A stretch of DNA of 64,000 nt from an uncultured Oscillospiraceae bacterium (lineage in GTDB: Bacteria > Bacillota > Clostridia > Oscillospirales > Ruminococcaceae). The notes below the pieces were generated by a model, which saw only the letters and a list, made by a program, of their open reading frames with translations, had not been told where the DNA came from and ran no database searches. The position numbers were made by a program, and so were the translations under genes. Positions within the stretch are counted from its first letter, which is position 1; each line of letters begins with the position of its first letter. The stretch covers positions 26,946 to 90,945 of the forward strand of contig CAYJGZ010000006.1 in assembly GCA_964370045.1 (NCBI GenBank), written 5' to 3'. Shown here piece after piece: positions 40,831-47,832 of this stretch.

Positions 40831-42390
40831 TTACTTTTGTGCATCTGTCTCTTTTGCATTTTTTGGAAAAGGCCGAGCTTTGCCTGCTTTCCCCGGCCCC
40901 AAACGCAGTGGGGATATTGCCGCAAGCCCGAGCGACGCAAGTGCTATGTATATGGGTATCTGGTTCACCAGCTGGCGCTGGTTGCTCTCCCAAAACAGCA
41001 TAAACAGGAAAAAGCCGAGCAGTGCCAAAAACATTGCGTCGGCTTTGTTGTTTCGCCGCCTCAGCGAAGCCGTCGCCCCCACAACACCCAGCACGCACAA
41101 AAGCACATACACACTTTGGTTCAGATGGAAAAATTCCGTGTAAAACCGCCCCTCTGGCAAAATGAGCGAATAGATAAAGTTGTCCTCGTTTACAGGCCCA
41201 CGTGAAAGCATGTAGCTTATGTCGCCGTCACCACTGCCGAAGGTGTAGTTTAGCTTGCGTGCAAAAAACTCTAAGTTTTCACTCGCAGAGCGGCTTTGCA
41301 GACGCTCTGTGATAAGCTGCCATGTGTAATCCTGTTTACCCTGCTGGTTGTCTATGGACAAAACGCTGTCGTAGTCGAGCTGCTCATAAGCGCCGTTTTG
41401 TCCCCCAAGGCCCATCGCCACCCAAAATGTTGCGGGCATTTGGAACTGCTCCAGCGATTCCTCGCTTAAAACAGTGCTCATCTCTATTTGTGTAAGCCCT
41501 AAGCTTAGCACAAAAAACACAGCCGCAGACACGGCGGAAATAATCAGCGTCTTTTTCACTTTTTTGGAGATAAGCCCCACTAAAAACAGCGCTATAAACA
41601 CAAAAAGTACAGTGCTTTTCATCGCATATCCGCAAAAAAGCACCAGCGCAGTGAGCAGCGTAAATACCCAAAAGCTTTTTTTGGAGGTGGCGCTTTTGGC
41701 ACGCTCGAACAAATAAAGAATAGCAGGCACAAACGCAAGCGAATACGTGTCGGTGTAAAACACCGAGCCTTGCAGGTAGACAAGCGGAAATATCAGCCAA
41801 AAAACAAGGCTGATATAAGCGGCAACGATGCCCGCAATGCGCCGCAGGTACAAAAACGTGAGGCATATTGCCGCGGTGAACACAAGCTGTGCGATTACGA
41901 CGGCGACGGCGTAGTAGGCCTCGTAGCTTGCTGCCCCCAGCGCATCCACCACCGACATCATGCCCACAAAAAACAGGAAAATAGGCACGTTGTTCGGCCA
42001 GATGTTGAAATATCGGATGTACTGATAGTAGTCGTCCCTGCCTGCGTCGTGCAGATAATAGCCTGCGCCGTTAAACACACGCCCAATATCGTGGTCCAGC
42101 GACTGAAAAGTAGCGATGCTCACAAAGCTTTGGACGATAAACACAGCCCCCACGGTTACGATAAGCGCAACAACCGCAAAGCGCTTTAGCTGTGCAACGC
42201 TCACAAACCTTTTGCCCAGGTAGCAAAGCCCAAGCACAAACGCAAACAGCACCGCCACAAGTGCCAGTATGACGGGTGCGCTGTAGGAATATTCCGAGCC
42301 AAAAAATATCGTCTGTATTGTAAGCGAGCCAAATATGACGATAAAAGCTATTTTTATTGCGCTGTGCGCAGTCTTGCAAACAGTTTTCAT
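40831..42390 (-). CDS. Polytopic membrane protein, GT-C (ArnT/PMT-like) glycosyltransferase fold suspected
   Basis: 519 aa with >10 predicted TM helices and a C-terminal soluble-looking region. The family assignment rests on topology and general resemblance only. Confidence 0.45.
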   Translation of the reverse strand: MKTVCKTAHSAIKIAFIVIFGSLTIQTIFFGSEYSYSAPVILALVAVLFAFVLGLCYLGKRFVSVAQLKRFAVVALIVTVGAVFIVQSFVSIATFQSLDHDIGRVFNGAGYYLHDAGRDDYYQYIRYFNIWPNNVPIFLFFVGMMSVVDALGAASYEAYYAVAVVIAQLVFTAAICLTFLYLRRIAGIVAAYISLVFWLIFPLVYLQGSVFYTDTYSLAFVPAILYLFERAKSATSKKSFWVFTLLTALVLFCGYAMKSTVLFVFIALFLVGLISKKVKKTLIISAVSAAVFFVLSLGLTQIEMSTVLSEESLEQFQMPATFWVAMGLGGQNGAYEQLDYDSVLSIDNQQGKQDYTWQLITERLQSRSASENLEFFARKLNYTFGSGDGDISYMLSRGPVNEDNFIYSLILPEGRFYTEFFHLNQSVYVLLCVLGVVGATASLRRRNNKADAMFLALLGFFLFMLFWESNQRQLVNQIPIYIALASLGLAAISPLRLGPGKAGKARPFPKNAKETDAQK

Positions 42391-42494
42391 AGTATGACGT
42401 GTCCTTTAATATTGTAAGTGTTTCGTTATTTAGTGTAGCAATTTTTTCCCAAAAGTGCAATTAGTACAAAAAAGCAATCAATCATCAAAAACAC

Positions 42495-42523
42495 TTGAAA
42501 TCATGCAAAAATTATACTATAAT
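42495..42523 (+). promoter_or_regulatory. Sigma-70-type promoter for tRNA-Val
   Basis: TTGAAA (42495-42500), 17-nt spacer, TATAAT (42518-42523), 27 nt before the tRNA. Confidence 0.55.
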
Positions 42524-42550
42524 ACCTAACATGCTACAAAAAATCCATAC

Positions 42551-42626
42551 GGAAGCTTAGCTCAGCTGGTAGAGCACCTGCTTGACGTGCAGGGGGTCAG
42601 GGATTCGAGTTCCTTAGCTTCCACCA
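42551..42626 (+). tRNA. tRNA-Val (anticodon GAC)
   Basis: GGAAGCTTAGCTCAGCTGGTAGAGCACCTGCTTGACGTGCAGGGGGTCAGGGATTCGAGTTCCTTAGCTTCCACCA. Anticodon loop TTGACGT, encoded CCA. Confidence 0.95.
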
Positions 42627-42633
42627 AGAAAAG

Positions 42634-42679
42634 GCCATAGTTCAGCGCTGTGAAAGGCGCTGGGTTGTGGCTCTTTTTA
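42634..42679 (+). terminator. Intrinsic terminator after tRNA-Val
   Basis: 15-bp stem with G-U pairs (gccatagttcagcgc / gcgctgggttgtggc), followed by TCTTTTT. Confidence 0.6.
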
Positions 42680-42782
42680 TTGCGCAAATGCGCACCTGCT
42701 TATGATTATATCTGCGTTTTGCTCCGAAAAATCTCACAAGCTTTGAGGCAGACATGTTGTATGAAATTTGGCATTTTCACCA

Positions 42783-42811
42783 TTGACACACAATATGTAG
42801 TGTAGTAAAAT
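42783..42811 (+). promoter_or_regulatory. Sigma-70-type promoter for nrdD
   Basis: TTGACA (42783-42788), 17-nt spacer, TAAAAT (42806-42811). Confidence 0.55.
42788..42803 (+). promoter_or_regulatory. NrdR-box-like operator in the nrdD promoter spacer
   Basis: ACACAATATGTAGTGT resembles the 16-bp NrdR box consensus (acaCwAtATaTwGtgt) and sits between the -35 and -10 boxes. I could not find a convincing second box. Confidence 0.5.
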
Positions 42812-42861
42812 AACACTTGCACCCAAATGGTATATCTTTTGAAATGTGAAAGGGGCTTTCG

Positions 42862-45153
42862 ATGCCAAAATCTCAGGTGAGGACAATTACAAAGCGGGAC
42901 GGGCGCATTGTGCCGTATGACGAGAGCAAGATTGCGCAGGCTATTTTGAAGGCGCTTGCCGCAAGCGGCGAGGAGGATGCCACAGTTGCGATGCGGCTTG
43001 CCGCCGAGGTGGGCGAGGCGATGTCCGTGAACGAGGGCGACTGCTGCCAAATCGAGGACATACAGGACGAGGCGGAAAAGGCGCTGATGCGCGCAGGCTT
43101 TGAGCAGGCGGCGAAAGCGTATATTTTGTATCGTGACGCTCGCACACGTGTGAGGGAGAGCAATACCTCGCTAATGCGTGCGTTTGATGAGATTATTAGG
43201 GCGGATGCCCGTGCGTCCGACCTAAAAAGAGACAACGCAAACGTGGACGGAAACACCGCCATGGGCAGTATGCTTCAGATAGGTGCGGCGGCATCCAAGG
43301 CATACGGCGCAAGCTACCTGCTCACAAAGGAGCAGCTTGCCGCATATAACGAGGGCTGGATTCACATTCACGATTTCGATTTTTACTCGCTGACAACCAC
43401 CTGTTGCCAAACGGACATAGAGAAGCTGTTTGAGGGTGGGTTTTCCACCGGGCACGGCTACCTGCGCAGTCCGCAGGATATTCAGAGCTATGCTGCGCTT
43501 GCGTGCATTGCTATTCAAAGTTGCCAAAACGACCAGCACGGCGGGCAGAGCATTGCAAACTTTGACTACGGCCTTGGCAAGGGTGTCGCAAAGACATATG
43601 AGCGGCTGTTCGCCGAAAATCTGGGCAAAGCGCTGCAGCTTTTAGCGCCCGAAAGCGGCGAGTGGACACGTGAAGAGCTGCGCACATGGTGCGCCGAAAT
43701 TAAAAAGCAGAGCGGCACTGCGCCAAAGCTTTCCCAATCGGCGGAGGAGCTGCTGCCCTACAAGCAGGCGCTTTGCAAAAAAGTGAGCGAGGATGTGGCG
43801 CAAAAGGCGCTCGACTTTGCGGCAAAGTCGGCCGAAAAGGAGACCGACCGCCGTTGCTACCAGGCAATGGAGGCACTGGTGCACAACCTAAACTCCATGC
43901 ACTCACGTGCAGGGGCACAAACACCCTTCTCCTCCATAAACTACGGCACGGACACCTCCCCCGAGGGGCGCATGGTCATTCGCAACGTACTGCTTGTGAC
44001 GCTGGCAGGCCTTGGCCACGGCGAAACGCCCATATTCCCCATTCAGATTTTCAAGCTGAAAGAGGGCGTAAACTATAGCCCCGAGGACCCGAACTACGAC
44101 CTGTTTGAGCTGGCGTGCAAGTGCAGTGCAAAGCGCTTGTTCCCGAACTTCAGCAACTTGGATGCGCCGTTCAACCTGCAATACTACGTAAAAGGCCGCC
44201 CCGAAACGGAGATAGCCACCATGGGGTGCCGCACACGTGTGATGGCAAACAACTACGACCCCACCCGCCAAACGGCATACGGCAGGGGCAACCTTTCCTT
44301 TACGTCCATCAACCTGCCCCGCCTTGCCATACAGGCAAAGGGCGACGAGGCTGTATTTTACAAAAACCTTGATGCGGCGATGGAATTTGTGGTGCAGCAG
44401 CTGCTGGACCGCTACGAAATCCAAGCGAAAAAGAAGGTGCGAAACTTCCCCTTCCTCATGGGGCAGGGTGTGTGGCTGGACTCGGATACGCTCTCTCCCG
44501 ACGATGAAATCCGTGAGGTAATAAAGCACGGCACGCTGTCCATGGGCTTTATCGGCCTTGCGGAGACGCTCGTGTCGCTGTACGGGCATCACCACGGCGA
44601 AAGCGAGGAGATGCAAAAGAAGGGGCTGGAAATTATCGGCCGCATGAACGCCTTTAACGTGCAAAAGGGCAAAGAGACGGGCATGAACTTCACACTGCTC
44701 GCCACCCCTGCGGAGGGGCTTTCGGGACGCTTTGTGCGCATGGATAGGGAGCGCTACGGCAGTATCCCCGGCGTGACGGACAAGGAATACTACACCAACA
44801 GCTTTCACGTGCCTGTGTACTATCCCATCTCGGCGCATGAGAAAATCCAAATCGAAGCGCCCTACCACGCGCTCACGCCGGCGGGGCACATCACCTACGT
44901 GGAGCTGAACGGTGACACCGCCCAAAACACCGAGGCGTTTATGTCCATCGTAAAGTGTATGCACGATGCAGGCGTGGGCTACGGCAGCATAAACCACCCC
45001 GTGGACAGAGACCCGGTGTGCGGATATGTGGGTGTTATAGGGGAAGTTTGCCCACGTTGCGGCCGAAAAGCAGGCGAGGCGATACCCGCAGAAAAGCTTG
45101 AGCAGTTGCGCAAGATGTACCCCGAAATAGGCAGATTTTGCGCAAAATCTTAG
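42862..45153 (+). CDS. nrdD: Anaerobic ribonucleoside-triphosphate reductase, large polypeptide lacking the glycyl-radical tail
   Basis: 763 aa. N-terminal ATP-cone (VRTITKRDGRIVPYDESKI...) and class III RNR core. Ends ...HPVDRDPVCGYVGVIGEVCPRCGRK... (zinc-ribbon region) plus a 27-aa tail, with no RxxGYL radical loop. Confidence 0.9.
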   Translation: MPKSQVRTITKRDGRIVPYDESKIAQAILKALAASGEEDATVAMRLAAEVGEAMSVNEGDCCQIEDIQDEAEKALMRAGFEQAAKAYILYRDARTRVRESNTSLMRAFDEIIRADARASDLKRDNANVDGNTAMGSMLQIGAAASKAYGASYLLTKEQLAAYNEGWIHIHDFDFYSLTTTCCQTDIEKLFEGGFSTGHGYLRSPQDIQSYAALACIAIQSCQNDQHGGQSIANFDYGLGKGVAKTYERLFAENLGKALQLLAPESGEWTREELRTWCAEIKKQSGTAPKLSQSAEELLPYKQALCKKVSEDVAQKALDFAAKSAEKETDRRCYQAMEALVHNLNSMHSRAGAQTPFSSINYGTDTSPEGRMVIRNVLLVTLAGLGHGETPIFPIQIFKLKEGVNYSPEDPNYDLFELACKCSAKRLFPNFSNLDAPFNLQYYVKGRPETEIATMGCRTRVMANNYDPTRQTAYGRGNLSFTSINLPRLAIQAKGDEAVFYKNLDAAMEFVVQQLLDRYEIQAKKKVRNFPFLMGQGVWLDSDTLSPDDEIREVIKHGTLSMGFIGLAETLVSLYGHHHGESEEMQKKGLEIIGRMNAFNVQKGKETGMNFTLLATPAEGLSGRFVRMDRERYGSIPGVTDKEYYTNSFHVPVYYPISAHEKIQIEAPYHALTPAGHITYVELNGDTAQNTEAFMSIVKCMHDAGVGYGSINHPVDRDPVCGYVGVIGEVCPRCGRKAGEAIPAEKLEQLRKMYPEIGRFCAKS

Positions 45154-45203
45154 TATAAACACAATAAAGTGCGAAATACATAACACGAAAGAGAGGCAAT
45201 GTT

Positions 45204-45356
45204 ATGAATACATCACAAAACACATCGGTGGGTAGCGGCGTTGAGTTCGAGCGCATACGCAGAATCACGGGCTATCTTGTGGGCACAATGGACAAGTGGA
45301 ACGACGCAAAGAAAGTGGAAGAAAAGGACCGCATCAAGCATGAGCTTCAGCGCTGA
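45204..45356 (+). CDS. 50-aa ORF encoding the NrdD-type glycyl-radical segment
   Basis: Not in the ORF track (<60 aa). ATG 45204 lies behind AAAGAGAGG. Reads MNTSQNTSVGSGVEFERIRRITGYLVGTMDKWNDAKKVEEKDRIKHELQR, matching the canonical NrdD C-terminus (RRxTGYL...N.AK..E...R.KH). Confidence 0.6.
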   Translation: MNTSQNTSVGSGVEFERIRRITGYLVGTMDKWNDAKKVEEKDRIKHELQR

Positions 45357-45897
45357 TAGCCTTTCGGGCGAGGCGCTCGCCGCCACGATAATACTGGCGG
45401 AGGGTGGCTTTGTGGGCGACTCCATAGTGGACGGGCCGGGCCTGCGCTGTACTGTGTTTGTGCAGGGCTGTCCCCACCACTGCCCCGGCTGTCACAACCC
45501 AGCCACCCACCCTTTTGAGGGCGGCGTTTCCACCACGGTGGGTGAGCTTGTGCAAATGATAAAGCGCTACCCCCTATGCCGTGGGGTAACGCTTTCGGGT
45601 GGCGAGCCGTTTTCGCAGGCCGCACCGCTTACGCTACTTGCACAGCTGTTGCGTGCGGAGGGATACGAGGTGGCGGCGTACAGCGGCTATACTTTTGAGC
45701 AGCTGCATGTTGGTAGCGAGCAACAAAAGGCACTTTTGGCACAGCTGAATATTTTGGTGGACGGCAGATACATAAGCGCCCAAAGAAATTTGACACTGCG
45801 CTTTAGGGGCAGTACCAACCAGCGGATTTTGGATGTACCCAAGAGCCTTTCGTGCAAAGCCGCACACATCACCGAGCAGGAACGCTGGGTGGGGTAG
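45340..45897 (+). CDS. nrdG: Anaerobic ribonucleotide reductase activating protein (radical SAM)
   Basis: ORF 45241..45897. VDGPGLRCTVFVQGCPHHCPGCHNP radical-SAM cluster motif. The start is uncertain: ATG 45340 overlaps the small ORF, and GTG 45412 behind GGAGGG is equally or more plausible. Confidence 0.85.
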   Translation: MSFSADSLSGEALAATIILAEGGFVGDSIVDGPGLRCTVFVQGCPHHCPGCHNPATHPFEGGVSTTVGELVQMIKRYPLCRGVTLSGGEPFSQAAPLTLLAQLLRAEGYEVAAYSGYTFEQLHVGSEQQKALLAQLNILVDGRYISAQRNLTLRFRGSTNQRILDVPKSLSCKAAHITEQERWVG

Positions 45898-45949
45898 CGC
45901 AGATTTACAGCACATAATTTTGCCAAAAATAATGCACCGCAACAAAGCC

Positions 45950-46001
45950 AAAAGCACCGAAGGTACGCCGTGTTTCAAGCGGATACCCTCGGTGCTTTTT
46001 T
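45950..46001 (+). terminator. Intrinsic terminator after nrdG
   Basis: Stem gcaccgaagg / ccctcggtgc (one mismatch) followed by T6. Confidence 0.6.
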
Positions 46002-46075
46002 GCTTTTTAATGGTGTGAAAACCACCTATGCGGTAATAGATAGTATCCACACTATCTACATAGCCTCAACACTAT

Positions 46076-46585
46076 CTAATCCTTTTCCAGCGCCCAAGAC
46101 TGAATCTTGTCGCTCGCCACAATCCACTCGCCCGTAATCATCCATTTGCCGTTTACCCGCTCCACAAGGCACTCGCACATGTTCATGTGGTTGTCCTCAC
46201 ACAGCTTTTTGCCGGTGGGGCCGTCCTTCATGTTGGGGCCCGTCATGGTGACGTTGCGGGAGGTGATTTGAATAAACTTAAACGTGTTATCGTCCACCTT
46301 GTGTGCCATGAAGTCCAAGAACAAAATTTCAAGGTCAGGTGAAGCGTTCAAGCACCAGATGGTAGCGTTTACCTCGTCCTCCACGCCCACAAGGTCTCCT
46401 GCGGAGTGGTGAACCACTATGTCCTCGGGGTAGCAGTCGTATATTGCACCCAGCATCTTATAGTCGTGGATATACAGCGTGTAGGCGATAAAAAACTCCT
46501 TAACATCCTCCTCGGTGTTCAGCTCGGCACGCTCCACAATCTCTTTATAACGAAGAAACTCTTCGTGTGTTCTCGTTTTAGCCAC
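46076..46585 (-). CDS. SnoaL-like / ester cyclase (NTF2-fold) family protein, copy c
   Basis: 169 aa, GTG start behind AAAGAGGTG. ...GPTGKKL...NGKWMITGEW... pattern typical of SnoaL-like cyclases. Identical to copy b apart from residue 4 and one extra C-terminal residue. Confidence 0.7.
   Translation of the reverse strand: MAKTRTHEEFLRYKEIVERAELNTEEDVKEFFIAYTLYIHDYKMLGAIYDCYPEDIVVHHSAGDLVGVEDEVNATIWCLNASPDLEILFLDFMAHKVDDNTFKFIQITSRNVTMTGPNMKDGPTGKKLCEDNHMNMCECLVERVNGKWMITGEWIVASDKIQSWALEKD
46082..46575. repeat. 494-bp repeat, unit 1 (identical by eye to 46733-47226)
   Basis: Line-by-line comparison shows no mismatch. Identity begins one codon inside the stop codon and ends 4 codons inside the start codon, and the flanks are unrelated. 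Confidence 0.85.
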
Positions 46586-46729
46586 AGATGCACCTCTTTT
46601 CTCATGTTTTCAGCTTTTAGTGGAAAATAAAACCATTCGCTAATAGAAAAACAGCACTGCCCATAATTATGGCATATAAGAGCACATCGCAATGTGGGTC
46701 AGTGCTAAAATTTCAGCGCAAAACAAGCT

Positions 46730-47236
46730 CTACTTTTCCAGCGCCCAAGACTGAATCTTGTCGCTCGCCACAATCCACTCGCCCGTAATCATCCATTTGC
46801 CGTTTACCCGCTCCACAAGGCACTCGCACATGTTCATGTGGTTGTCCTCACACAGCTTTTTGCCGGTGGGGCCGTCCTTCATGTTGGGGCCCGTCATGGT
46901 GACGTTGCGGGAGGTGATTTGAATAAACTTAAACGTGTTATCGTCCACCTTGTGTGCCATGAAGTCCAAGAACAAAATTTCAAGGTCAGGTGAAGCGTTC
47001 AAGCACCAGATGGTAGCGTTTACCTCGTCCTCCACGCCCACAAGGTCTCCTGCGGAGTGGTGAACCACTATGTCCTCGGGGTAGCAGTCGTATATTGCAC
47101 CCAGCATCTTATAGTCGTGGATATACAGCGTGTAGGCGATAAAAAACTCCTTAACATCCTCCTCGGTGTTCAGCTCGGCACGCTCCACAATCTCTTTATA
47201 ACGAAGAAACTCTTCGTGTGTTCTCGCCTTAGCCAT
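46730..47236 (-). CDS. SnoaL-like / ester cyclase (NTF2-fold) family protein, copy b
   Basis: 168 aa. ATG behind GAGGAGG, abutting the stop of the upstream paralog. Has its own hairpin + T-run terminator at ~46640-46705. Confidence 0.7.
   Translation of the reverse strand: MAKARTHEEFLRYKEIVERAELNTEEDVKEFFIAYTLYIHDYKMLGAIYDCYPEDIVVHHSAGDLVGVEDEVNATIWCLNASPDLEILFLDFMAHKVDDNTFKFIQITSRNVTMTGPNMKDGPTGKKLCEDNHMNMCECLVERVNGKWMITGEWIVASDKIQSWALEK
46733..47226. repeat. 494-bp repeat, unit 2
   Basis: See unit 1; the offset is 651 bp. Confidence 0.85.
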
Positions 47237-47238
47237 TA

Positions 47239-47832
47239 CTATGCCTCCTCATTGAGTTCTTGCTTTAACTCTTGCATAGATACCTGCTGTGGCTCTTGTG
47301 GTGTCTTTTGGTTTTCACGTATCAATTTTTCAACGGCGAAGTTGCTGCGGATGGTGTATTCAATGGCAACTTTCCAGCGGCCGTCCAGCTTGCGGAACAC
47401 AAACAGCGACTCGCCTGCGCAGTTGGACTCGTCTATTTTCTTGTATGTAGGTGCGCCGTATATGCTGGGGCCGTCGTTTGTGCCCGTGCAGTAGTAGCGC
47501 TGATATGCCTTAAACTCGCTCTCGAAATCACCCGAGGCAAATGTTTCCACGATGTTTATGCTGAAATCGGTAAACGCCGAAATCCAGCTAAGTGCTTCTT
47601 TCGTGACATCCTCTTTGTTTGTTATTTTGCGTCCGTCCGCTGTTTTGTAAACAATATTGTCCGCATAGTACTCATAAATCAGGCCAACCATCTTATAATC
47701 GAAAATGAGTTTTGTAAGCGCACGGGCGTACTCTACCGCCTCGTCTCTGTCCTTCACCTGGGAGTAGCGCTCTAGCATTTGCTCATAAACCGCACGGTCC
47801 TGTACAATTTTTGCCGACTTGTCCATTTTCAA
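47239..47832 (-). CDS. SnoaL-like (NTF2-fold) family protein, divergent paralog a
   Basis: 197 aa, with the same fold signature as copies b and c (IFDYKMVGLIYEYY..., ...DGRWKVAIEYTIRSN) but low identity. C-terminal charged tail. Confidence 0.6.
   Translation of the reverse strand: MKMDKSAKIVQDRAVYEQMLERYSQVKDRDEAVEYARALTKLIFDYKMVGLIYEYYADNIVYKTADGRKITNKEDVTKEALSWISAFTDFSINIVETFASGDFESEFKAYQRYYCTGTNDGPSIYGAPTYKKIDESNCAGESLFVFRKLDGRWKVAIEYTIRSNFAVEKLIRENQKTPQEPQQVSMQELKQELNEEA

What the first reader, a model, noticed from the sequence alone, without database searches (positions are those of the whole stretch)
45040..45415. Class III ribonucleotide reductase whose glycyl-radical segment is on a separate 50-aa ORF
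The 763-aa NrdD ORF ends ...HPVDRDPVCGYVGVIGEVCPRCGRKAGEAIPAEKLEQLRKMYPEIGRFCAKS* at 45153. It therefore stops just after the C-terminal zinc-ribbon region and has no R-x-x-G-Y-L ... N.AK..E...R.KH tail. Fifty nt later, behind an AAAGAGAGG Shine-Dalgarno, an unlisted ORF (45204..45356) reads MNTSQNTSVGSGVEFERIRRITGYLVGTMDKWNDAKKVEEKDRIKHELQR. This matches the canonical NrdD C-terminal glycyl-radical segment as I recall it. The two ORFs are in different frames. Stops at 45151 (nrdD frame) and at 45156 and 45165 (small-ORF frame) mean no single indel can fuse them. The spacer is AT-rich and looks like real intergenic DNA. The first Cys of the usual CxxC...CxxC ribbon also appears replaced (DRDPVCG). 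Either this is a two-piece enzyme with the radical-bearing peptide supplied in trans (conceptually like GrcA/YfiD for pyruvate formate-lyase), or a recently disrupted gene. I do not know of a described autonomous NrdD radical peptide.
Basis: partly seen in the sequence, partly recalled or inferred. Interest (0 to 1): 0.72.

Follow-up and report, generated by a model that had tools for sequence, protein, structure and literature searches.

The report
Two-piece anaerobic ribonucleotide reductase
The enzyme that makes DNA building blocks without oxygen is here encoded in two pieces, with the radical-carrying glycine on a separate 50-residue protein; the same split is conserved in many anaerobic bacteria and I found no description of it.

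Summary
nrdD (42862..45153, 763 aa) stops after the zinc ribbon. A separate ORF with its own Shine-Dalgarno (45204..45356, 50 aa) carries the RRITG23Y glycyl-radical loop. nrdG follows.

This is not a recent disruption:
- The small ORF has 2832 homologues, and the best 120 are all free-standing proteins of 47-82 aa.
- Of the 80 species-level genomes whose Gly segment is closest to this small ORF, 58 hold it as a short free-standing ORF; in 52 the truncated nrdD lies just upstream.
- These include Ruthenibacterium lactatiformans and Elusimicrobium minutum Pei191.
- The spacer varies from 1 to 450 nt and all three frame relations occur. A strong SD is present in 48 of 53 loci (52 plus the window).
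- The 33-codon core is under strong purifying selection (pN 0.13, pS 0.82).
- The large subunit keeps the thiyl Cys, NxN flap, HxHD motif and ATP-cone.

The large subunit also has a conserved tail that looks like a dead copy of the Gly loop, which suggests an origin by partial duplication.

Best reading: a two-subunit class III RNR whose radical-bearing peptide is supplied in trans and activated by NrdG. Pfam and NCBIfam have no dedicated family, and the literature I could search does not describe it. A second family of about 95 aa, not linked to nrdD, turned up in passing.

The parts
42783..42811 (+). Sigma-70-like promoter of the operon (TTGACA, 17 nt, TAAAAT)
   Evidence: Consensus scan, 11 of 12 matches. 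Inferred, not shown to be active.
42788..42803 (+). NrdR-box-like palindrome ACACAATATGTAGTGT inside the promoter spacer
   Evidence: Perfect match to ACACWANATNTWGTGT and the only perfect one in 64 kb. The consensus is taken from my own knowledge of NrdR boxes.
42862..45153 (+). nrdD large subunit, 763 aa. Holds the ATP-cone (aa 8-95), the catalytic barrel with thiyl Cys456, the NxN flap (N125, N127), HxHD (168-171) and a zinc ribbon D717-x2-C720...C730-x2-C733. It has no radical glycine.
   Evidence: Pfam and NCBIfam. Alignment to 8P23. Invariant columns in 47 homologues. AF2 model pLDDT 76.
45067..45150 (+). Tail of the large subunit specific to split forms (aa 736-763, KAGEAIPAEKLEQLRKMYPEIGRFCAKS). 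It looks like a degenerate copy of the linker plus Gly loop, with the radical Gly replaced.
   Evidence: Conserved consensus REGExxxxEKLxELRKKYPxxPxF in 36 split homologues. In register with the small-ORF leader. Predicted helices 743-752 and 756-760 at low to moderate confidence.
45154..45203 (+). 50-nt intergenic spacer with the Shine-Dalgarno AAAGAGAGG at 45188-45196
   Evidence: Sequence. No significant RNA structure, z -0.5. No Rfam match. Spacer length in relatives is 1-450 nt.
45204..45356 (+). Small subunit, 50 aa. Holds the glycyl-radical loop RRITG23Y (Gly23 codon 45270-45272) and the C-terminal DRIKH segment.
   Evidence: for homology. for the free-standing family. for purifying selection.
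45340..45897 (+). nrdG activase (radical SAM). The ATG at 45340 overlaps the small ORF by 17 nt. An alternative GTG start at 45413 lies behind GGAGGG.
   Evidence: TIGR02491 NrdG E 4e-38, Pfam Fer4_12 and Radical_SAM. nrdG overlaps the small ORF stop in most related loci.
45945..46005 (+). Intrinsic terminator after nrdG (hairpin followed by a U run)
   Evidence: RNA fold -29.5 kcal/mol, z -5.8.

Best explanation
This is a naturally split class III (anaerobic) ribonucleotide reductase.

One NrdR-controlled transcript appears to encode three proteins:
- a 763-aa large subunit (ATP-cone, catalytic barrel, zinc ribbon) that lacks the radical glycine;
- an independently translated 50-aa small subunit that consists of the glycyl-radical loop and the C-terminal tail of a normal NrdD;
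- the activase NrdG.

Inferred mechanism:
- NrdG abstracts the C-alpha hydrogen of Gly23 of the small subunit.
- The peptide loop sits in the barrel of the large subunit next to Cys456, as residues 705-739 do in P. copri NrdD.
- The radical shuttles between Gly23 and Cys456 in trans.

The split probably arose by partial tandem duplication of the 3' end of nrdD. The upstream copy lost the glycine and became the conserved tail of the large subunit. The downstream copy gained a Shine-Dalgarno and a start codon.

A likely benefit, which is inference only, is cheaper recovery from oxygen damage. Oxygen cleaves the chain at the glycyl radical, so it would destroy only a 6-kDa peptide that can be replaced. 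The free peptide may also be easier for the activase to reach.
For: Shown:
- The break maps exactly between the Zn site and the Gly loop.
- The small ORF belongs to a large family of free-standing proteins. It has 2832 homologues, and the best 120 are all 47-82 aa with an invariant core FERIRRITGYLVGT..W/FN..K..EE.DRVKH.
- In a library clustered at 50% identity there are 2028 representatives at E<=1e-3. The best 150 are all 48-196 aa.
- In 52 species-level loci plus the window (53 in all), a truncated nrdD is followed by the small ORF. The spacer is 1-450 nt, frame relations 0/1/2 number 21/17/15, and the SD matches at least 5 of 6 in 48 of 53.
- The core is under purifying selection: pS 0.82, pN 0.13, and codon-position identities 0.84/0.89/0.42.
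- 119 of the 120 nearest large-subunit homologues lack the Gly motif.
- The same arrangement occurs in Ruthenibacterium lactatiformans (L081) and Elusimicrobium minutum Pei191 (CP001055.1, L083).
- It also occurs in Allofournierella, Acutalibacter, Scatolibacter, Mailhella and Treponemataceae.
- The large subunit keeps the thiyl Cys, NxN flap, HxHD and ATP-cone.
- nrdG is adjacent and often overlaps the small ORF.
- The tail is in register with the Gly-loop leader: BLOSUM score 20.9 against -2.4 +/- 1.1 for shuffled tails (hhalign P 0.005).
- A fused relative at 80% identity differs by a clean 165-290-nt indel between two G-E-G-coding repeats.
Against: - There is no direct evidence that the 50-aa product is made, binds the large subunit or carries a radical.
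- I could not co-fold the two chains.
- The AF2 model of the large subunit alone is uninformative about the tail (pLDDT 45-67).
- I could not check whole genomes for a second, Gly-bearing NrdD. The window holds none.
- The hhalign support for the duplication origin is weak (probability 7%). The shuffle test uses related, non-independent sequences.
- The proposed selective advantage is inference only.
Confidence: 0.8

Rival explanations
1. Recently disrupted gene: nrdD was broken by a mutation or insertion and is decaying. The 50-aa ORF is a leftover.
For: Two ORFs in different frames with stops in between. A fused relative at 80% identity exists.
Against: The split is conserved in at least 52 species-level genomes from several phyla, with 48-77% identity of the large subunit. 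The small ORF is under strong purifying selection. An SD and ATG are conserved. A conserved tail is specific to split forms. All catalytic motifs are intact.
Confidence: 0.02
2. One polypeptide is still made, by recoding (frameshift, readthrough, ribosomal bypass), RNA splicing or protein trans-splicing across the gap.
For: The 50-nt gap recalls the T4 gene 60 bypass. In Elusimicrobium minutum the two ORFs are in frame and separated by one stop. Phage nrdD genes are often interrupted by introns or inteins that are spliced out.
Against: Frame relations are evenly spread (21/17/15) and the spacer ranges from 1 to 450 nt. There is no Rfam intron or other RNA family here and no stable structure in the spacer. 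A strong SD precedes the small-ORF ATG in 48 of 53 loci. The 28-aa tail and 14-aa leader are far too short for split-intein halves and carry no intein motifs (own knowledge).
Confidence: 0.03
3. The small protein is a GrcA-like spare part for a different, full-length NrdD encoded elsewhere. The truncated large ORF is inactive or has another role.
For: Free-standing Gly-loop proteins not linked to nrdD exist. These are the 92-97-aa family and several about 55-aa ORFs. I could not scan whole genomes for a second nrdD.
Against: The small ORF sits between the truncated nrdD and nrdG in most loci. The truncated large subunits keep every catalytic motif and are themselves highly conserved. 119 of the 120 nearest homologues are truncated in the same way. 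The window holds no second nrdD.
Confidence: 0.1
4. Sequencing or assembly artefact at 45150-45210.
For: None specific. Read support could not be inspected.
Against: The same architecture appears in dozens of independent assemblies, including finished genomes of isolates.
Confidence: 0.01

Closest known systems
Canonical single-chain class III RNR NrdD with NrdG (for example Prevotella copri NrdD, PDB 8P23; E. coli and T4 NrdD)
   Same: Same ATP-cone, barrel, thiyl Cys, NxN flap, zinc ribbon, Gly-loop sequence (RITGYLVGT..W.N) and adjacent activase. The large ORF matches 8P23 at E 3e-175 and the small ORF matches residues 707-738.
   Different: The glycyl-radical domain is cut in two between the Zn site and the Gly loop. 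The Gly loop and C-terminal tail are a separate, independently translated 50-aa protein. The large chain carries an extra 28-aa tail. Asp replaces the first zinc Cys, although this is clade-wide.
GrcA/YfiD (and T4 Y06I), the autonomous glycyl-radical 'spare part' of pyruvate formate-lyase
   Same: A small free-standing protein that carries a glycyl-radical loop homologous to the C-terminus of a large glycyl radical enzyme. It is presumably activated by that enzyme's activase and works in trans (PMC13450708).
   Different: GrcA backs up a PFL that has its own Gly734. Here the large subunit has no radical glycine, so the peptide would be obligatory. It is homologous to NrdD and not to PFL, with no Pfam Gly_radical hit. 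It is encoded inside the nrdD-nrdG operon. The unlinked 92-97-aa family noticed in passing is the closer analogue of GrcA.
Split class II RNR NrdJa/NrdJb (Pseudomonas aeruginosa, Thermus phage YS40)
   Same: An RNR catalytic chain encoded by two consecutive ORFs that assemble into an active enzyme. The C-terminal piece carries a functionally essential module (PMC9669993, PMC4520616).
   Different: A different RNR class and a different split site. NrdJb is a large folded domain (IscU-like plus zinc finger) that carries no radical site.
Phage 'genes-in-pieces' RNRs (Aeh1 nrdA-a/nrdA-b split by mobE; phage nrdD split by group I introns, inteins or homing endonucleases)
   Same: RNR genes, nrdD included, found as separate fragments (PMC3653736, PMC12880540).
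   Different: Those splits are caused by mobile elements and most are repaired by splicing. Here there is no intron, intein or endonuclease (50-nt spacer). The split site and the small ORF are conserved in cellular genomes.
Glycyl radical enzymes with small accessory subunits (benzylsuccinate synthase beta/gamma, 4-hydroxyphenylacetate decarboxylase gamma)
   Same: A large glycyl-radical-type catalytic subunit that works with one or more small polypeptides (own knowledge).
   Different: In those enzymes the radical glycine stays on the large subunit and the small subunits bind Fe-S clusters. Here the small polypeptide carries the radical site itself.

Membership tests
Class III RNR catalytic subunit NrdD (Pfam PF13597, NCBIfam PRK07111/TIGR02487) | RNR/GRE barrel with the thiyl-radical Cys on the finger loop, plus the substrate-binding motifs | tested here: met
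   PRK07111 score 1057 bits against a cut-off of 764. Aligned to 8P23 with TMGCRTRV (Cys456), NxN (N125, N127) and HxHD conserved.
Class III RNR catalytic subunit NrdD (Pfam PF13597, NCBIfam PRK07111/TIGR02487) | C-terminal zinc ribbon (CxxC...CxxC) | tested here: inconclusive
   D717-x2-C720...C730-x2-C733: three Cys plus Asp. The same holds in all 47 aligned homologues and in fused relatives. Metal binding is not testable here.
Class III RNR catalytic subunit NrdD (Pfam PF13597, NCBIfam PRK07111/TIGR02487) | Radical glycine (RxxGY) at the C-terminus of the same polypeptide | tested here: not met
   The large ORF stops at profile position 711 of 746. The motif RRITG23Y is on the separate ORF 45204..45356.
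Class III RNR catalytic subunit NrdD (Pfam PF13597, NCBIfam PRK07111/TIGR02487) | Cognate radical-SAM activase NrdG encoded alongside | tested here: met
   TIGR02491 130.8 bits against a cut-off of 126.1. The gene is at 45340..45897.
Class III RNR catalytic subunit NrdD (Pfam PF13597, NCBIfam PRK07111/TIGR02487) | Glycyl radical formation and NTP reduction | not testable with these tools
   Needs anaerobic reconstitution, EPR and an activity assay.
GrcA/YfiD autonomous glycyl radical cofactor | Small free-standing protein that carries a glycyl-radical loop | tested here: met
   A 50-aa ORF with its own SD. The family consists of free-standing 47-82-aa proteins.
GrcA/YfiD autonomous glycyl radical cofactor | Sequence homology to the PFL glycyl-radical domain (Pfam Gly_radical) | tested here: not met
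   The only Pfam or NCBIfam hits are to NrdD families.
GrcA/YfiD autonomous glycyl radical cofactor | Partner enzyme has its own radical glycine, so the small protein is a back-up used after oxygen damage | tested here: not met
   The partner large ORF lacks the Gly loop altogether.
RNR genes interrupted by a group I intron, intein or homing endonuclease | Intervening sequence encodes or forms an intron, intein or endonuclease | tested here: not met
   No Rfam hit in 42300-46100 at E<=1 apart from a tRNA. The spacer is 50 nt and has no stable fold. The ORFs in the region show nothing else.
Split RNR of two consecutive ORFs (NrdJa/NrdJb type) | Two adjacent, separately translated ORFs that together cover one RNR catalytic chain, conserved across species | tested here: met
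   This is an analogy of architecture only. The class and the split site differ.

The most novel reading that the evidence does not exclude
The 50-aa protein may be a consumable, exchangeable radical cofactor subunit. NrdG would activate it off the enzyme, and it would then dock into the barrel. After oxygen cleavage at Gly23 it would simply be replaced. The conserved tail of the large subunit, a dead copy of the Gly loop, would act as a placeholder or docking element. Together with the unlinked 92-97-aa family, this would mean class III RNRs have their own, previously unrecognised spare-part or trans-radical system. That would answer the open question of whether such proteins exist outside pyruvate formate-lyase.
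Probability: 0.35. Interest if true: 0.88.

Novelty: new variant of a known kind. Interest (0 to 1): 0.75.

Why it matters
- **Textbook rule.** Every glycyl radical enzyme described so far carries its radical glycine at the C-terminus of the catalytic chain. The only trans-acting Gly-loop protein known is GrcA/YfiD for pyruvate formate-lyase. A June 2026 review says it is still undetermined whether spare parts exist for other glycyl radical enzymes.
- **What the split would show.** A widespread, conserved class III RNR with the radical site on a 6-kDa peptide would show that radical storage and catalysis can be physically separated in this family.
- **Experimental value.** It offers a tractable system: a peptide that can be synthesised and isotope-labelled, for studying activase recognition, radical transfer in trans and repair after oxygen damage.
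- **Annotation.** Databases currently call the small gene 'hypothetical' or miss it, and call the truncated large gene a normal NrdD.
- **Relevance to gut anaerobes.** The split occurs in abundant human-gut bacteria such as Ruthenibacterium lactatiformans, where oxygen tolerance matters.

Tried and rejected
- **Co-folding.** I tried to fold large subunit, linker and small subunit as one chain. The AF2 model of the large subunit alone gave only a low-confidence helical tail.
- **Source organism.** Exact-sequence look-ups of the window's own small and large proteins found nothing. The cluster look-up gave no names.
- **RNA elements.** The Rfam scan found no intron or riboswitch. The spacer fold was not significant.
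- **Duplication origin.** hhalign of tail against small ORF was weak (probability 7%, P 0.005). I complemented it with a shuffle test.
- **Orphan family.** The fold search of the orphan model against the PDB found nothing significant (best E 0.13).
- **Literature.** Seven searches and six papers gave no description of a split NrdD Gly peptide.
- **Explanations rejected.** Pseudogene, recoding or splicing, split intein, and assembly error. The reasons are under the rival explanations.
- **Zn-ligand change.** I rejected any link between the Asp-for-Cys change and the split, because the change is clade-wide.
Full report
**1. The observation**

- nrdD runs from 42862 to the TAG at 45151-45153 (763 aa).
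- After a 50-nt A+T-rich spacer with AAAGAGAGG at 45188-45196, an ATG at 45204 opens a 50-codon ORF that ends at 45356.
- The two ORFs are in different frames. Stops at 45156 and 45165 close the small-ORF frame upstream.

Profile searches place the break precisely.
- The large ORF covers NCBIfam PRK07111 positions 3-711 of 746 (1057 bits) and Pfam NRDD 1-530 of 562. It also has an ATP-cone.
- The small ORF covers PRK07111 710-744 and Pfam NRDD 532-562 (E 4.5e-8; E 1e-14 against PRK14704).

Solved structures agree.
- The large ORF aligns to Prevotella copri NrdD (8P23) up to residue 704 (CPKCGS).
- The small ORF aligns to residues 707-738, which contain the radical Gly711.
- In that enzyme the glycyl radical domain is residues 676-739: a Zn site, then the buried Gly loop, then a surface tail (PMC11226230).
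- The split therefore cuts that domain in two, inside a two-residue linker.

nrdG follows at 45340..45897 (TIGR02491). A strong terminator lies after it. A promoter-like site with a perfect NrdR-type box lies upstream of nrdD.

**2. Not a broken gene**

The small ORF belongs to a large family of free-standing proteins.
- It has 2832 homologues at E<=1e-3. The best 120 are all free-standing proteins of 47-82 aa.
- They share an invariant core (FERIRRITGYLVGT..W/FN..K..EE.DRVKH) and have variable ends.
- In a library clustered at 50% identity there are 2028 representatives. The best 150 are all 48-196 aa.

A scan of one genome per species returned 80 loci.
- In 58 of them the Gly segment is a short free-standing ORF. 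In 52 of these the truncated nrdD lies directly upstream on the fetched stretch.
- Counting the window as a 53rd locus, the spacer ranges from 1 to 450 nt (median 50).
- The three frame relations occur 21, 17 and 15 times.
- An ATG preceded by an SD matching at least 5 of 6 positions of AGGAGG is present in 48 of 53.
- nrdG usually overlaps the small ORF stop.
- What is conserved is therefore independent initiation, not any recoding geometry.

The 33-codon core is under strong purifying selection. Across 59 sequences (58 loci plus the window), pS is 0.82 and pN 0.13. Identity at codon positions 1, 2 and 3 is 0.84, 0.89 and 0.42.

Of the 120 nearest homologues of the large subunit, 119 lack the Gly motif.

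The same arrangement is seen in cultured organisms and in several phyla.
- Ruthenibacterium lactatiformans: 759 aa, then 53 aa, then nrdG (L081).
- Elusimicrobium minutum Pei191, finished genome: nrdG, then a 746-aa nrdD, then 49 aa (L083).
- Isolates of Allofournierella, Acutalibacter and Scatolibacter.
- Metagenome-assembled genomes assigned to Lachnospiraceae, Peptococcaceae, Treponemataceae and Desulfovibrionaceae.

The large subunit keeps the thiyl-radical Cys (C456), the NxN flap, the HxHD motif and the ATP-cone.

**3. Anatomy specific to the split form**

Fused relatives join the zinc ribbon to the Gly loop by about 10 residues (CGRTEDEGDLGFERIRR). Split large subunits instead end in a conserved tail, REGExxxxEKLxELRKKYPxxPxF.

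This tail lies in register with the leader and Gly loop of the small ORF.
- Example from L003: the tail reads GEEIPFERIEELRKKYP and the small ORF reads GQGVGFERIRRITGYL.
- The mean in-register BLOSUM62 score is 20.9, against -2.4 +/- 1.1 for shuffled tails.
- hhalign finds the same register but weakly (P 0.005, probability 7%).

I read the tail as a dead copy of the Gly loop. This suggests the split arose by partial tandem duplication of the 3' end of nrdD.

Assembly GCA_003324335.1 is consistent with that reading.
- It holds a split locus (L088) and a fused locus (L084) behind the same upstream gene family.
- The fused form equals the split form minus 165-290 nt lying between two repeats that encode G-E-G.
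- A neighbour-joining tree places fused forms among split ones. It is unrooted in effect and has no support values. It suggests several transitions between the two states.

The AF2 model of the large subunit (pLDDT 76) predicts short helices at 743-752 and 756-760. Their placement has low confidence.

The Asp at the first zinc-ligand position is invariant in the whole clade, fused forms included. It is therefore unrelated to the split.

**4. Mechanism**

Shown: the gene architecture, its conservation, the purifying selection and the homology mapping.

Inferred:
- The 50-aa product is activated by NrdG at Gly23.
- It inserts its loop into the barrel beside Cys456.
- It exchanges the radical with Cys456 in trans.

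The proposed advantage rests on established knowledge that oxygen cleaves glycyl radical enzymes at the radical glycine. Only a small peptide would be lost, and it could be replaced. This is untested.

Recoding, splicing and protein trans-splicing are unlikely.
- The frames and spacers vary widely.
- There is no Rfam intron here and no structured spacer.
- The tail and leader are too short for split inteins.

A role purely as a spare part for another NrdD cannot be fully excluded without whole-genome scans. It fits poorly with the operon position and with the intact, conserved large subunit.

**5. Comparison with what is known**

- It works like a canonical NrdD-NrdG system, but it fails the defining feature 'radical glycine on the catalytic chain'.
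- It resembles GrcA/YfiD in concept. It is not homologous to GrcA and would be obligatory rather than a back-up.
- Split RNRs are known for class II (NrdJa/NrdJb) and in phages through introns, inteins or endonucleases. None of these has this split site or this logic.
- Pfam (2025) and NCBIfam (June 2026) have no model for the small protein. Source databases call it 'hypothetical protein'.
- A June 2026 review states that spare-part proteins are known only for formate lyases.
- Large RNR phylogenies discarded sequences under 400 aa.
- Within the searchable literature I found no description of this split. Subscription-only papers were not covered.

**6. Verdict**

This is a real, conserved and apparently undescribed two-piece class III RNR. 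It is a new variant of a known kind. My confidence in the two-subunit reading is 0.8, and I rate the interest at 0.75.

Noticed in passing
L052 3824-4111; L058 3854-4138; L085 8001-8279; also L037, L042, L048, L050, L065, L066, L071, L073, L078: A second family of free-standing proteins of 92-97 aa. A conserved N-terminal domain of about 50 aa (ITGNAS..EAQAYV.YLE.KYNRKLE.LDI.IDGDYADL) is fused to the NrdD Gly loop and a G..METL end like that of fused NrdDs. These genes are not next to nrdD or nrdG. At least 120 clusters exist, all annotated as hypothetical. The family is a candidate GrcA-like spare part for class III RNR. AF2 predicts a beta-alpha-beta-beta N-domain (pLDDT 72-81), and the PDB fold search found nothing significant.
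   Followed up: partly
L017, L029, L035, L038, L049 (small ORFs at the match positions given): Short Gly-loop ORFs of about 50-60 aa with no nrdD or nrdG detectable within the fetched flanks. The small gene can therefore be unlinked from the large one.
   Followed up: partly
L084 2501-4843 (fused) and L088 1501-4121 (split), both from GCA_003324335.1: One assembly holds a fused and a split version at 77-80% identity to the window's NrdD, behind the same upstream His_Phos_1 gene family. The difference is a clean indel between two repeats that encode G-E-G. The L088 spacer also contains a long perfect palindrome.
   Followed up: partly
L022, L040, L062, L079 (large-subunit tails): Some split large subunits have longer tails with CGYCGD...EE.DR..PN. 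This is reminiscent of a shortened Gly-radical motif. It is unclear whether it is a relic or still functional.
   Followed up: no
L083 4640-4909 (Elusimicrobium minutum Pei191, CP001055.1): Here the large and small ORFs are in the same frame, separated by a single stop and 18 nt (…NNFCS*LLEGKNMENNK…). The tail is only about 13 aa and nrdG lies upstream of nrdD. Readthrough would give a fused chain in this species.
   Followed up: no
window 42788-42803: Perfect NrdR-box-like palindrome ACACAATATGTAGTGT inside the spacer of the promoter-like site TTGACA-17-TAAAAT (42783-42811). I did not find a convincing second box.
   Followed up: partly
window 45010-45012 (Asp717 of NrdD): Asp replaces the first Cys of the zinc ribbon (DxxC...CxxC) in every member of this NrdD clade, split or fused. 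P. copri NrdD has Cys at this position.
   Followed up: yes
window 46082-47236 (- strand ORFs 46076..46585 and 46730..47236); also 47239..47832: Tandem duplication with a period of 651 nt and 100% identity over at least 300 nt. It gives two near-identical ORFs of 168-169 aa, followed by a diverged 197-aa paralogue. It could be a recent duplication or an assembly artefact.
   Followed up: partly
window 42551-42626 and 42633-42672: tRNA-Val (GAC) followed by a terminator-like hairpin, just upstream of the nrdD promoter.
   Followed up: yes
L005 3814-4667: In an Anaerostipes MAG only the last roughly 37 codons of the nrdD tail remain upstream of the small ORF and nrdG. This may be a rearrangement, an insertion or a misassembly.
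   Followed up: no
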